64,000 bases of DNA. Origin: Escherichia coli (GTDB lineage Bacteria; Pseudomonadota; Gammaproteobacteria; Enterobacterales; Enterobacteriaceae). The position numbers were made by a program, and so were the translations under genes. How positions within the stretch are numbered: position 1 is the stretch's first letter; each line of letters begins with the position of its first letter. Of the stretch, positions 1 through 21,045 are shown piece after piece. Below the pieces are notes generated by a model, which searched no databases, was not told the DNA's origin, and was given only the letters and a program-made list of their open reading frames with translations. The stretch lies in NCBI RefSeq assembly GCF_003018255.1, contig NZ_CP027440.1. One strand, 5' to 3'.

Positions 1-663
1 CGGGAAGCAAGCGTTTCATCATCGGGCGGCGGTGCTTTGATAACCGGTGCTTCGCCTTGCAGATAACGATTAATATCGCGCAGCAACGCCTGCGGCCCTT
101 TCCAGGTTTCAAAGACCACCTGGGCAATTTCACGCGGCAGCGGGTAGCAGTGGCGACGCCAGAAATCGGCGCAGGCCTGGTAGCGTAGCAGAGACTCATC
201 TTCAATCAGCTGCTGCTCAAACAGCATGCCGGATTCAAAGGCATTCAGGTTGAGCATGCGCTGGCAAAAACCGTGAATAGTAAAGACTGCCGCTTCATCC
301 ATCTGCCGTTCGGCTAACAACAACCACTGCGCGGCTTGCGCTTTATCGTCGATCTCCTCCAGCAGGAGTTTGTACAGTGGATTGTCGGTGGTTTCACGCA
401 GACAGGCGATGCGCAACTCGTGGATATTGCTACGGATACGACCGCGCAATTCTGCCGTGGCAGCCTCGGTAAAGGTGACCACCAGCAGTTCTTCAACGGT
501 CAGCGGGCGGGGAAAGGCGGCAGAACCGCCTAGTCCAAGTAACAGGCGCAAATAGAGCGCCGCAATCGTAAAGGTTTTGCCTGTGCCGGCAGAGGCTTCA
601 ATCAGGCGCTCGCCCTGTAAGGGCAAGCGCAAAGGATCTAGTGTCTCGGCGACATCACTCATT
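1..663 (-). CDS. recB: RecBCD helicase/nuclease subunit RecB, N-terminal fragment; the gene runs off the window start
   Basis: Reverse complement of 641-663 encodes MSDVAET; a Walker A motif (ASAGTGKTF) follows near aa 25-32. The start overlaps the ptrA stop. Confidence 0.9.
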
Positions 664-13637: not shown

Positions 13638-14321
13638 CGGACTACCTCAAAATAAAGCTTTATATACGAATGATTGTTTCATACTCCAGGAAGACGGTAA
13701 ACCACTCTCTGCAGGGCATTACACACTAATAACAATTGAATAACTCACAGTTATGTGCAGAGTTATAAACAGAGGAAGGGGTGGATAGCCGTTTTTATTC
13801 ACCTTTTCTGTGGATAGAGTTGTGAAGAACTACGGAATTACTACGGGAAAACCCGGAGCATTCTGAATAAGACAGATACAGAGATTTTAAAATATTCATT
13901 ATCAGTCAATGCATTACATGTGATTTGAGTAATAAAAAAGAGTAATTCGTGACCCAGGTCACACCTCTCATTTACGGGTTGGCGAAAGATCAACCAATGC
14001 CGTATTTATCCACAGAATGTGCCACTAAGTTAAGCACTGAACCACTAAAAACTGGAGTTTCGTCGCACGTCAAGGCTGTAAATGGAAACAGTAGTGAAGG
14101 TTTTTCACAGTTATCCCAGCTTTCTGTGGATAACATGGTGTAAGATCCTGTTTATTTTCAGTGACCAGATTTGGAAAACCCGTTGCAGTGTTGCGCAACT
14201 CGATTACCGGCAACCTAAAAAGCAATATAAATCAGAGAATTGAACAACGCATGTGGAAAAAGTTACACTGCGAATATTCGGCACTTAATTGCTGTTTGTT
14301 TTTTAACCAAGGTATCATGAC

Positions 14322-15011
14322 ATGTCCCAACCTCGCCCACTGCTCTCTCCTCCCGAAACTGAAGAACAATTGTTAGCGCAAGCACAACAACTTTCTGGTT
14401 ATACATTGGGAGAACTGGCGGCACTTGCCGGGCTGGTTACGCCGGAGAATTTAAAACGCGATAAGGGCTGGATTGGCGTGTTACTGGAGATCTGGCTAGG
14501 TGCCAGCGCAGGGAGTAAACCTGAGCAAGATTTTGCTGCTCTGGGCGTGGAACTTAAAACTATCCCTGTGGATAGTCTTGGTCGTCCGCTGGAAACAACA
14601 TTCGTTTGTGTTGCCCCGTTAACGGGCAATAGCGGGGTGACCTGGGAAACCAGCCACGTGCGCCACAAGCTCAAACGCGTGCTGTGGATACCGGTTGAAG
14701 GCGAGCGCAGCATCCCGCTGGCAAAGCGTCGCGTAGGATCACCGTTGCTGTGGAGCCCGAATGAAGAGGAAGACCGACAGTTACGCGAAGACTGGGAAGA
14801 ATTAATGGATATGATTGTTCTCGGTCAGATTGAGCGGATCACCGCTCGTCACGGGGAATATTTACAGATACGACCGAAAGCAGCGAATGCGAAAGCGCTG
14901 ACCGAAGCTATTGGTGCCCGGGGCGAACGGATTCTGACGCTGCCGCGCGGATTTTATTTGAAGAAGAATTTCACCAGTGCGCTACTGGCCCGTCATTTTC
15001 TGATCCAGTAG
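14322..15011 (+). CDS. mutH: Methyl-directed mismatch repair endonuclease MutH
   Basis: 229 aa, N-terminus [33 protein letters not shown]. Confidence 0.93.
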
Positions 15012-20761: not shown

Positions 20762-20849
20762 AAAAAAAACCTGCGCATCCGCGCAGGTTGGTGCAAGAGA
20801 CAGGGTACGAAGAGCGTACCGAATAATCTCACCAATCAATACCTCTGGG
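20762..20849 (-). ncRNA. omrA: OmrA small regulatory RNA (OmpR-regulated, Hfq-dependent)
   Basis: 88-nt minus-strand sequence beginning CCCAGAGGUAUUGAUUGGUGAG and ending in a CCUGCGC...GCGCAGG hairpin plus U8. Confidence 0.9.
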
Positions 20850-20963: not shown

Positions 20964-21045
20964 AAAAAAAACCTGCGCATCTGCGCAGGCTGGTGTAATT
21001 CATGTGCTCAACCCGAAGTTGACTTCACCTATCAATACCTCTGGG
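20964..21045 (-). ncRNA. omrB: OmrB small regulatory RNA, paralog of OmrA
   Basis: 82-nt minus-strand sequence beginning CCCAGAGGUAUUGAUAGGUGAAG and ending in a terminator hairpin plus U8; it shares 5' and 3' ends with omrA. Confidence 0.9.

What the first reader, a model, noticed from the sequence alone, without database searches (positions are those of the whole stretch)
13638..14321. Unusually long AT-rich rppH-mutH divergent intergenic region with a palindrome and small ORFs
The 684 bp between the divergent rppH and mutH starts contain a perfect palindrome GTGACC-CA-GGTCAC (13949-13962) and two small frames (13949-14143 and 14161-14376). This much space suggests an unannotated small protein, sRNA or regulatory hub rather than two simple promoters.
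Basis: seen in the sequence. Interest (0 to 1): 0.3.

Follow-up and report, generated by a model that had tools for sequence, protein, structure and literature searches.

The report
Known DARS2 replication-control DNA element
The long gap between rppH and mutH is DARS2, a well-studied stretch of non-coding E. coli DNA that recharges the replication initiator DnaA, and the palindrome in it is a published CRP-binding site, so the finding is real but already explained.

Summary
The rppH-mutH spacer is 684 bp with about 40% G+C. The palindrome and both small frames sit at the stated coordinates.

The spacer is DARS2, the DnaA-reactivating sequence 2 of E. coli. Published deletion primers, oligonucleotides and mutagenesis primers map onto the window base for base. 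They place core DnaA boxes I-III at 13795-13829, IHF sites at 13888-13916, the Fis 21-mer at 13984-14004, and boxes IV, V and VI.

The palindrome is a CRP site reported by genomic SELEX, ChIP-seq and Footprint-seq (Kd about 2.7 nM).

No small protein or sRNA is supported. The annotated ygdT ORF is intact in only 8 of 80 Enterobacteriaceae. No frame shows codon periodicity, and Rfam finds nothing.

Three things seen here go beyond the DARS2 papers I read:
- The CRP half-sites and all spacings across about 330 bp are fixed in 78-80 of 80 species.
- A LexA-type box lies 228 bp upstream of mutH and is invariant.
- The "dispensable" right half is the best conserved part and holds a second core-like DnaA-box triplet.

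Verdict: already known, low interest. One modest open question remains: do CRP and LexA modulate DARS2?

The parts
13638..14321 (.). rppH-mutH divergent intergenic spacer, 684 bp
   Evidence: Length is 678-688 bp in 78 of 79 other Enterobacteriaceae species.
13772..14226 (.). DARS2 as cloned (455-bp fragment of Kasho 2014)
   Evidence: The left end is set by primer MutH-4 (GAGGAAGGGGTGGATAGCC), which starts at 13772. The right end is 13772 + 454 by the stated length; I did not read primer MutH-2.
13772..14004 (.). Minimal DARS2 (Delta-Right construct pOA67)
   Evidence: [quoted passage not shown]
13795..13803 (+). Core DnaA box I, TTATTCACC
   Evidence: The deletion primers MutH-9/MutH-10 of Frimodt-Moller 2015 flank exactly 13795-13829 ('DnaA box I-III'). 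Scan. Conserved 99-100% in 80 species except the last base, 13803 (46%), which varies.
13809..13817 (-). Core DnaA box II, CTATCCACA; head-to-head with box I across a 5-bp spacer
13821..13829 (-). Core DnaA box III, TTCTTCACA; 3 bp from box II
   Evidence: This is the 'double DnaA box' gTTCTTCACAactCTATCCACAg of the DnaA ChIP-seq paper.
13862..13870 (-). DnaA box IV, TTATTCAGA
   Evidence: Mutagenesis primers Ksh-30/31; scan.
13888..13916 (.). IHF-binding sites: IBS1 (13888-13900, TAAAATATTCATT) and IBS2 (13904-13916, minus strand TAATGCATTGACT), 3 bp apart
   Evidence: Consensus scan. The 3-bp gap is stated in Kasho 2014. Primers Ksh-16/19.
13940..13954 (.). Fis site FBS1, GAGTAATTCGTGACC (perfect Fis consensus; dispensable for DARS2 activity)
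   Evidence: Primers Ksh-3/4 replace exactly these 15 bp. Scan. Its left part is not conserved across species.
13948..13963 (.).
   Evidence: Genomic SELEX lists TGTGACCTGGGTCACG for rppH-ptsP< <ygdT. CRP ChIP-seq in ETEC reports the same sequence. Footprint-seq gives Kd about 2.7 nM. GTGA-N6-TCAC is present in 80 of 80 species with a variable centre.
13984..14004 (.). Essential 21-mer holding Fis sites FBS2-3, GAAAGATCAACCAATGCCGTA
   Evidence: Difference between primers MutH-11 and MutH-17, and MutH-24/25. GAAAGATC is invariant in 80 species.
13976..14027 (.). FBS2-5 cluster with low-affinity DnaA boxes Va-c (52-bp oligonucleotide of Miyoshi 2021)
   Evidence: Oligonucleotide FBS2-5-f is identical to the window sequence.
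14006..14014 (+). DnaA box V, TTATCCACA (negative-feedback site for ATP-DnaA)
   Evidence: 100% conserved.
14074..14093 (.). LexA-type (SOS) box GGCTGTAAATGGAAACAGTA, ending 228 bp before the mutH ATG
   Evidence: CTGT-N8-ACAG lies inside an invariant block. My rough heterology index is about 11, rank 2 of 127,962 positions in the window. Salmonella mutH is reported with one SOS box 228 bp from the ATG, HI 12.99, 3.6-fold induced. Binding in E. coli was not shown here.
14111..14145 (.). Second core-like DnaA-box triplet: TTATCCCAG (14111-19, +), box VI TTATCCACA (14125-33, minus), TCTTACACC (14137-45, minus)
   Evidence: Same 5-bp and 3-bp spacing as the DARS2 and DARS1 cores. Box VI by primers Ksh-34/35. 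Strongest DnaA ChIP-seq peak and a 'double box'. Nearly invariant.
14183..14197 (.). Fis site FBS6 (approximate)
   Evidence: Primers Ksh-9/10. Poorly conserved.
13990..14136 (-). Annotated ORF ygdT (48 aa), most likely not a real coding gene
   Evidence: Annotated in RefSeq. 48 aa kept in 8 of 80 species, with stops at several independent positions and the start lost in 17. No codon periodicity. No NCBIfam model.
13949..14143 (+).
14161..14376 (+).
14240..14269 (+). Putative proximal mutH promoter, TTGAAC-18 bp-TACACT (inferred). A perfect TTWTNCACA DnaA box (TTTTCCACA, 14252-14260, minus strand) lies in its spacer.
   Evidence: The -10 is TAAACT in most genera; box. A different prediction, TCGGCA-18-TTTAAT (14278-14307), is printed in Shimada 2014. 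No start site was mapped here.
13673..13701 (-). Putative proximal rppH promoter, TTTACC-17 bp-AACAAT (inferred)
   Evidence: Both hexamers lie in 100% conserved blocks. The tool's stricter consensus scan found none. Not mapped experimentally here.
13729..13771 (.). Two invariant blocks (ATAACAATTGAATAACTCACAG and GTTATAAACAG) just left of the cloned DARS2, at fixed spacing to the core; function unknown

Best explanation
The spacer is DARS2 (DnaA-reactivating sequence 2), flanked by short promoter regions for rppH-ptsP and mutH. It works as DNA, not through a transcript or a protein.

Mechanism shown experimentally in K-12 and taken from the papers:
- ADP-DnaA binds core boxes I-III. The head-to-head pair on boxes I and II lets the AAA+ domains interact so that ADP is released.
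- IHF at IBS1-2 bends the DNA, so that Fis bound about 180 bp away at FBS2-3 reaches the core complex.
- Apo-DnaA leaves and binds ATP, which raises ATP-DnaA before replication initiation.
- ATP-DnaA then oligomerises from box V over FBS2-5 and evicts Fis, a negative feedback.

Inferred here for this strain: it works the same way, because every mapped site is identical to K-12.

The palindrome is a high-affinity CRP site, and the invariant block at 14074-14093 is a LexA-type box. Both lie inside DARS2. Whether they act on rppH/mutH transcription, on DARS2, or on both is not known.
For: 1. Published reagents map exactly onto the window:
- The deletion primers that remove 'DnaA box I-III' flank 13795-13829.
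- The 52-bp FBS2-5 oligonucleotide equals 13976-14027.
- Primers for the minimal fragment, the 21-mer, FBS1, FBS6, IBS1-2 and boxes IV-VI all anchor in the window.

2. The spacer differs from MG1655 at 10 of 684 bases, with no indel, and none of the differences falls in a mapped site.

3. Perfect DnaA boxes are about 37 times denser here than in the 64-kb window as a whole.

4. DnaA ChIP-seq in K-12 gives three peaks. After converting coordinates (window + 2,955,340) they fall on the core, box V and box VI.

5. Conservation in 80 Enterobacteriaceae species:
- The core, the 21-mer and boxes V and VI are invariant.
- Core to CRP site is 144 bp in 80 of 80, and core to the right module is 316 bp in 78 of 80.
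- Indels are confined to the two promoter-proximal flanks.

6. The core architecture equals that of DARS1.

7. The region is present in 5,424 of 5,426 complete E. coli genomes at 95% identity or more.
Against: - Nothing in the sequence contradicts the explanation.
- Nucleotide-exchange activity cannot be tested with these tools and is taken from the literature for K-12.
- RefSeq does not annotate DARS2. It annotates only ygdT in this spacer.
- The founding paper (Fujimitsu 2009) is not in the library, so its statements reach me through later papers.
- Parts of the spacer are not explained by the published DARS2 model: the invariant blocks 13729-13771, 14058-14097 and 14146-14180, and the fact that the right half is more conserved than the minimal element.
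Confidence: 0.96

Rival explanations
1. The spacer encodes a small protein: the annotated YgdT (minus strand, 48 aa) or one of the first reader's plus-strand frames.
For: - The ORFs exist.
- ygdT is annotated in RefSeq genomes, including MG1655 (b4610).
- The ygdT ORF is kept within Escherichia and in a few Salmonella and Citrobacter species.
Against: - ygdT keeps 48 aa in 8 of 80 species. Stops appear after 9-39 codons at several independent positions, and the start codon is lost in 17 species, although the DNA is 76-83% identical by codon phase and never shifts frame.
- Variability by codon phase is flat (0.17/0.22/0.21), against 0.16/0.085/0.55 in mutH and 0.076/0.038/0.38 in rppH.
- Frame A keeps its length in 29 of 80 species, frame B in 1 of 80.
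- No NCBIfam family matches any of the three.
- The two 'ygdT' mentions I read are misprints of ydgT. Of the other hits in the search (35 in all, 20 listed), the apparently genuine mentions (PMC3469383, PMC4666226, PMC2646356) were not read. No expression evidence was found.
Confidence: 0.04
2. The conserved right half (about 14058-14180) encodes an sRNA or a structured leader RNA.
For: - The block is nearly invariant and shows no coding pattern.
- The minus strand folds slightly better than shuffles (z = -2.0).
- A promoter-like TTGACG-18-TTTAGT on the minus strand was predicted by Shimada 2014.
Against: - No Rfam match even at E = 1, while OmrA/B in the next spacer are found.
- The plus strand folds no better than shuffles (z = -0.75).
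- The main hairpin is just the inverted pair of DnaA boxes.
- The terminator-like sites are weak and not conserved.
- The predicted -10 is not conserved outside Escherichia.
- The invariant bases coincide with DnaA boxes that are bound in vivo.
Confidence: 0.05
3. For the palindrome only: it is an ordinary transcriptional CRP site for a distal promoter of rppH-ptsP (or mutH) and has nothing to do with DARS2.
For: - All three CRP studies assign it to rppH or to rppH/mutH.
- ptsP encodes a PTS-type enzyme I, a plausible CRP target (my own knowledge).
- One more distant relative (L178, MutH 78% identical) keeps the DARS2 core, the 21-mer, box V, the LexA-type box and the right module but has no CRP box.
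- The subFBS1 mutation destroys the left half-site yet did not change DARS2 activity or the ori/mass ratio.
Against: - The centre (13955.5) is about 290 bp from the putative proximal rppH promoter and about 310 bp from the putative mutH promoter. I found no conserved -10 element at class I or class II distance on either strand (my reading).
- The site lies inside the minimal DARS2, between IBS1-2 and FBS2-3, at exactly 144 bp from the core in 80 of 80 species.
- The subFBS1 tests were done in glucose-casamino-acid medium or in vitro without CRP. cAMP is low in glucose medium (my own knowledge).
Confidence: 0.55
4. The spacer is just two promoters plus neutral AT-rich filler.
For: AT-rich spacers are common between divergent genes (my own knowledge).
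Against: - 52% of positions in 14005-14226 are at least 95% identical across 80 species. This stretch is less variable (0.24) than the mutH coding sequence (0.265).
- Spacings are fixed to the base pair.
- There is experimental literature on the element.
Confidence: 0.01

Closest known systems
DARS2 of E. coli K-12 (Fujimitsu 2009; Kasho 2014; Miyoshi 2021; Kasho 2025)
   Same: It is the same locus: between rppH (ygdP) and mutH, with identical core boxes I-III, box IV, IBS1-2, FBS1, 21-mer/FBS2-3, box V, box VI and FBS6.
   Different: Ten single-base differences from MG1655, all in spacers or near the mutH promoter. Otherwise none.
DARS1 (bioD-uvrB spacer)
   Same: [quoted passage not shown] A LexA box also lies in the same intergenic region (the uvrB SOS box; plus my own knowledge).
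   Different: DARS1 is reported to need no IHF or Fis and to be about 101 bp. DARS2 has a long regulatory arm, a CRP site and a second core-like triplet.
datA and oriC (other DnaA/IHF nucleoprotein sites)
   Same: Clusters of DnaA boxes with an IHF site and base-pair-exact spacing that is conserved between strains.
   Different: datA promotes ATP hydrolysis and oriC promotes unwinding. Their functional DnaA oligomers are head-to-tail, whereas the DARS core uses a head-to-head pair.
CRP sites (TGTGA-N6-TCACA)
   Same: 9 of 10 half-site bases match. The site is bound in vitro and in vivo.
   Different: No promoter was identified at a canonical distance. The site is embedded in a replication-control element and overlaps a Fis site.
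SOS (LexA) box upstream of mutH in Salmonella and Vibrio
   Same: CTGT-N8-ACAG at the same distance from the ATG (228 bp) as the Salmonella box. LexA binds the Vibrio parahaemolyticus mutH promoter in EMSA.
   Different: I found no report for E. coli. The heterology index is borderline (about 11-13), and the box is far from any mapped promoter.

Membership tests
DARS (DnaA-reactivating sequence) | [quoted passage not shown] | tested here: met
   TTATTCACC(+)-5 bp-CTATCCACA(-)-3 bp-TTCTTCACA(-) at 13795-13829. The layout is the same in DARS1.
DARS (DnaA-reactivating sequence) | Identity with the experimentally defined DARS2 locus (rppH/ygdP-mutH spacer of K-12) | tested here: met
   Primers and oligonucleotides from three papers match. 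674 of 684 bases are identical to MG1655.
DARS (DnaA-reactivating sequence) | DARS2-specific regulatory sites: IBS1-2 and FBS2-3 at the published spacing | tested here: met
   IBS1 and IBS2 are 3 bp apart. The 21-mer is at 13984-14004. The spacing is invariant in 80 species.
DARS (DnaA-reactivating sequence) | DnaA occupancy in vivo | not testable with these tools
   Taken from the literature for K-12: three ChIP-seq peaks at the core, box V and box VI.
DARS (DnaA-reactivating sequence) | Promotes ADP release from ADP-DnaA and raises ATP-DnaA and initiation | not testable with these tools
   Shown for K-12 in Kasho 2014 and Miyoshi 2021. Inferred for this strain from identical sites.
CRP-binding site | TGTGA-N6-TCACA inverted repeat | tested here: met
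   CGTGA-CCCAGG-TCACA, one mismatch. GTGA-N6-TCAC in 80 of 80 species.
CRP-binding site | Binding by cAMP-CRP | not testable with these tools
   Literature for the identical sequence: genomic SELEX, ChIP-seq in ETEC, Footprint-seq with Kd about 2.7 nM.
CRP-binding site | Position relative to a CRP-dependent promoter (class I or class II) | tested here: inconclusive
   I found no conserved -10 at the expected distances by reading. No start-site data are available.
LexA (SOS) box | CTGT-N8-ACAG with A/T-rich centre and a low heterology index | tested here: inconclusive
   CTGT and ACAG are present. HI is about 11 with a matrix I rebuilt from memory; my training sites score at most 9.2. The Salmonella paper gives 12.99.
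LexA (SOS) box | LexA binding and damage induction of the neighbouring gene | not testable with these tools
   Salmonella mutH is 3.6-fold up in nalidixic acid. Vibrio EMSA. Nothing was found for E. coli.
Protein-coding small gene (ygdT and the two plus-strand frames) | ORF kept open across related species | tested here: not met
   Kept in 8 of 80 species (ygdT), 29 of 80 (frame A) and 1 of 80 (frame B).
Protein-coding small gene (ygdT and the two plus-strand frames) | Excess variation at third codon positions | tested here: not met
   Flat by phase, against a strong signal in the mutH and rppH controls.
Small RNA gene | Match to a described family, or own promoter plus terminator plus conserved structure | tested here: not met
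   No Rfam match. No conserved terminator. Fold z-scores of -0.75 and -2.0.

The most novel reading that the evidence does not exclude
cAMP-CRP is a built-in modulator of DARS2. CRP bends DNA sharply (my own knowledge). Its high-affinity site sits inside the minimal element, in the arm between the IHF sites and the essential Fis sites, overlaps Fis site FBS1, and is held at a base-pair-exact distance from the core in all 80 Enterobacteriaceae examined. On this reading CRP changes the loop geometry or competes with Fis, so that DnaA reactivation, and with it initiation mass, responds to carbon supply. LexA at the box at 14074-14093 might similarly link DARS2 or its right-hand DnaA module to DNA damage. 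The DARS2 papers I could read never mention CRP, cAMP or LexA, and DARS function has been studied almost only in glucose-casamino-acid medium, where cAMP is low (my own knowledge).
Probability: 0.2. Interest if true: 0.6.

Novelty: already known. Interest (0 to 1): 0.2.

Why it matters
As given, the finding rediscovers from raw sequence one of the four non-coding loci (oriC, datA, DARS1, DARS2) that set the timing of E. coli chromosome replication. That is a good check on the scan but not new knowledge.

Three practical points follow:
1. RefSeq annotates this spacer only with ygdT, an ORF that comparative data say is not a gene, and leaves DARS2 unmarked. That is why a naive reader sees an 'empty' spacer.
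2. CRP and LexA-type sites reported in transcription-factor surveys lie inside DARS2, and the replication papers I read do not discuss them. This gives a cheap, testable link between carbon status or DNA damage and DnaA recharging.
3. The part of DARS2 found dispensable in plasmid assays is the part evolution conserves best, so the current minimal-element model probably misses a function.

Tried and rejected
- Rfam at a permissive threshold on the spacer: nothing.
- Consensus promoter scan: none found. Two weak terminator-like sites were found, and neither is conserved.
- RNA folding of 14040-14200 on both strands: unremarkable.
- NCBIfam scan of ygdT and both frames: nothing.
- Literature on 'ygdT': the two mentions I read are misprints of ydgT. 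The last search brought nothing useful.
- Fujimitsu 2009 is not held in the library.
- Reaching families beyond Enterobacteriaceae:
  - The search for homologous proteins lists only the 120 closest MutH proteins.
  - The 50%-identity representatives are too distant, and their mutH is not next to rppH.
  - A metagenome scan with a degenerate core pattern gave mostly chance hits and DARS1. It yielded a single informative DARS2 locus, L178.
- A first check of frame B was invalid by design because the region was cut at the mutH ATG. It was redone properly.
- The idea that the palindrome is a transcription terminator for ygdT was rejected: its centre varies between species and the T-run is not conserved.
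Full report
WHAT IS THERE

The window is E. coli chromosome. It is 100% identical over the tested stretch to strain RM14723 and 98.5% identical to K-12. The gene order is ptsP-rppH on the minus strand and mutH-ygdQ-ygdR-tas on the plus strand. G+C is 0.38-0.42 in the spacer against 0.50-0.59 in the flanks. It is the longest gap between annotated genes in the 50 kb I checked. The runner-up, aas-galR at 585 bp, holds the sRNAs OmrA and OmrB. The palindrome GTGACC-CA-GGTCAC is at 13949-13962, and the two plus-strand frames exist.

IDENTIFICATION

The spacer holds 4 of the 10 perfect DnaA boxes (TTWTNCACA) of the whole 64-kb window, and 10 boxes if one mismatch is allowed. No other 684-bp stretch of the window reaches 8. 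This pointed to DARS2, the DnaA-reactivating sequence described between ygdP (rppH) and mutH.

I tested that lead with published reagents rather than memory:
- The lambda-Red primers that Frimodt-Moller et al. 2015 used to delete 'DnaA box I-III' match window 13745-13794 and 13830-13871. The deleted piece is therefore exactly 13795-13829: TTATTCACC-ttttc-TGTGGATAG-agt-TGTGAAGAA.
- The 52-bp 'FBS2-5' oligonucleotide of Miyoshi et al. 2021 is identical to 13976-14027 and contains box V, TTATCCACA, at 14006-14014.
- The primer table of Kasho et al. 2014 fixes these features:
  - the left end of the cloned DARS2 at 13772;
  - the right end of the minimal element at 14004;
  - the essential 21-mer with Fis sites FBS2-3 at 13984-14004;
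  - FBS1 at 13940-13954;
  - FBS6 near 14183-14197;
  - box IV at 13862-13870;
  - box VI at 14125-14133.
- The two IHF sites fit the published consensus and lie 3 bp apart, as the paper states, at 13888-13900 and 13904-13916.
- Against MG1655 the spacer has 10 substitutions and no indel. None falls in a mapped site.
- DnaA ChIP-seq peaks reported for K-12 fall on the core, box V and box VI once coordinates are converted (window + 2,955,340).

I regard the identification as settled.

HOW IT WORKS

These steps are shown in K-12 by others:
- ADP-DnaA binds the core.
- The head-to-head pair on boxes I and II promotes ADP release.
- IHF at IBS1-2 bends the DNA so that Fis at FBS2-3 acts on the core complex.
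- Apo-DnaA rebinds ATP.
- ATP-DnaA then spreads from box V over FBS2-5 and displaces Fis.

That this strain behaves the same way is inferred from identical sites.

THE PALINDROME

Taken alone it is not beyond chance: 61% of dinucleotide shuffles of the spacer have such a palindrome. Across 80 Enterobacteriaceae species, anchored on MutH and therefore unbiased for the spacer, only GTGA and TCAC are invariant. The six central bases vary freely. That is the signature of a CRP-type site, TGTGA-N6-TCACA. The extra complementarity that made it a 'perfect palindrome' is an E. coli accident.

The literature confirms CRP binding:
- Genomic SELEX lists TGTGACCTGGGTCACG (the reverse complement) for the rppH-ygdT spacer.
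- CRP ChIP-seq in ETEC H10407 reports the same sequence.
- A 2026 Footprint-seq preprint gives it a Kd of about 2.7 nM, among the 77 tightest of 1,217 sites.

None of these papers mentions DARS2. The DARS2 papers and review I could read never mention CRP or cAMP.

The site overlaps Fis site FBS1 and lies inside the minimal DARS2. It is exactly 144 bp from the core in 80 of 80 species and 36 bp before the conserved AAAGATC of the 21-mer. The published subFBS1 mutation destroys its left half-site and had no effect. However, the assays were done in glucose-casamino-acid medium or in vitro without CRP, and cAMP is low in glucose medium (my own knowledge).

One more distant relative, a metagenome contig with MutH 78% identical, keeps the 687-bp spacer, the core, the 21-mer, box V and the right-hand module but has no CRP box. 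CRP is therefore not part of the ancestral DARS2 mechanism.

My best guess is an ordinary transcriptional role for rppH-ptsP or mutH (0.55). A real minority chance (0.2) is that CRP modulates DARS2.

NO SMALL PROTEIN, NO sRNA

Coding tests:
- From the aligned start codons, ygdT keeps its 48 aa in 8 of 80 species. Elsewhere it is cut after 9-39 codons at several independent positions, or it has lost its ATG. This happens even though the DNA never shifts frame.
- Frame A keeps 64 aa in 29 of 80 species. Its GTG is the CRP half-site.
- Frame B keeps 71 aa only in the window.
- Variability by codon phase is flat in all three. mutH (0.16/0.085/0.55) and rppH (0.076/0.038/0.38) show the expected third-position excess.
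- No NCBIfam model matches.

RNA tests:
- Rfam finds nothing in the spacer, even at E = 1, but finds OmrA/B next door.
- Fold energies are ordinary.
- The terminator-like sites are not conserved.

WHAT THE PUBLISHED MODEL DOES NOT COVER

1. Fixed spacing. From about 13729 to about 14180 there is essentially no indel in 80 species. Core to the right-hand module is 316 bp in 78 of 80, and the block at 13741 to the core is 63 bp in 76 of 77. All length variation sits in the two promoter-proximal flanks.

2. The right half is the best conserved part. The stretch 14005-14226, which was dispensable in plasmid assays, is more conserved (variability 0.24, with 52% of positions at least 95% identical) than the minimal element (0.41). 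It is also more conserved than the mutH coding sequence (0.265).

3. A second core-like triplet. The right half contains TTATCCCAG-ctttc-TGTGGATAA-cat-GGTGTAAGA at 14111-14145, with the same spacers as the DARS2 and DARS1 cores. Its first box is degenerate (6 of 9). The pair formed by box VI and its neighbour was noted as a 'double DnaA box' and is the strongest DnaA ChIP-seq peak.

4. A LexA-type box. The invariant block 14068-14096 contains CTGT-N8-ACAG. It ends 228 bp before the mutH ATG. That is exactly the distance given for the single SOS box of Salmonella mutH (HI 12.99; 3.6-fold induction by nalidixic acid). LexA binds the mutH promoter of Vibrio parahaemolyticus. I found no E. coli report. 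My heterology index of about 11 rests on a matrix rebuilt from memory and is only a yardstick. DARS1 also shares its spacer with a LexA box, that of uvrB (plus my own knowledge).

PROMOTERS (INFERRED ONLY)

- For mutH, TTGAAC-18-TACACT at 14240-14269. The -10 is TAAACT in most genera.
- For rppH, TTTACC-17-AACAAT at 13701-13673. Both hexamers lie in invariant blocks.
- Shimada 2014 prints other predictions.
- No start site was available to me.

VERDICT

The element and the CRP site are both already known. Interest is low (0.2). The most novel reading still open is that CRP, and perhaps LexA, feed into DARS2 (probability about 0.2).

Noticed in passing
window 13948-13963 and loci L003-L082: The CRP half-sites GTGA and TCAC are invariant in 80 of 80 Enterobacteriaceae, while the 6-bp centre varies. 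The site is exactly 144 bp from the DARS2 core in every species. It is missing in the single more distant DARS2 locus found (L178). No DARS2 paper I read mentions CRP.
   Followed up: partly
window 14074-14093: A LexA-type box (CTGT-N8-ACAG) lies inside an invariant block of the DARS2 right half, 228 bp upstream of mutH. This matches the SOS box reported for Salmonella mutH. It is also kept in L178. I found no E. coli report.
   Followed up: partly
window 14005-14226: The DARS2 right half, dispensable in plasmid assays, is more conserved than the minimal DARS2 and than the mutH coding sequence. It holds a second DnaA-box triplet (14111-14145) with the same spacers as the DARS1 and DARS2 cores.
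   Followed up: partly
window 13990-14136 (minus strand): The RefSeq gene ygdT (b4610) looks like a spurious ORF lying on conserved DARS2 DNA. It is open in 8 of 80 species and has no codon periodicity and no family model. DARS2 itself is not annotated in the records I saw.
   Followed up: yes
window 13950-13995 and the aligned loci: In most genera the centre of the CRP box is [TC]GATC[AG], and a further GATC lies about 12 bp downstream. Together with the invariant GATC of the 21-mer this gives three Dam sites within about 45 bp. E. coli keeps only the last one (13988). A possible SeqA or methylation link was not examined.
   Followed up: no
window 13729-13771: Two invariant blocks (ATAACAATTGAATAACTCACAG and GTTATAAACAG) lie just outside the cloned DARS2, at a fixed 63 bp from the core in 76 of 77 species. 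Function unknown: an rppH regulatory site or a further part of DARS2.
   Followed up: no
window 14146-14180 and 13846-13854: An invariant block CCTGTTTATTTTCAGTGACCAGATTTGGAAAACC follows the right-hand triplet. GGAAAACCC also follows the core (13846), 11 bp closer to its triplet than the copy at 14173 is to the right-hand triplet. This suggests an old duplication of a core-plus-flank module. Unexplained.
   Followed up: no
window 14252-14260 and aligned loci around 14270: A DnaA box overlaps the putative mutH promoter. In E. coli it is TTTTCCACA, between the -35 and -10. In Klebsiella, Enterobacter, Raoultella and others it is CTATCCACA, just after the -10. This suggests DnaA control of mutH.
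   Followed up: no
window 20762-20849 and 20964-21045 (minus strand): The sRNAs OmrA and OmrB (Rfam RF00079) lie in the aas-galR spacer, the second-longest spacer of the region. They served as a positive control for the Rfam scan.
   Followed up: yes
window 30325, 39164, 48781: Three other near-consensus CRP boxes in the window (yqeF-yqeG, ygeV-ygeW and ygfJ-ygfK regions) are the same sequences listed in the genomic SELEX table of Shimada 2011.
   Followed up: partly
window 1-663, 32209-32963, 33377-35673: In the 100% identical RefSeq record (strain RM14723), recB, actS and xdhA are marked as frameshifted pseudogenes. I did not check whether these are real or assembly errors.
   Followed up: no
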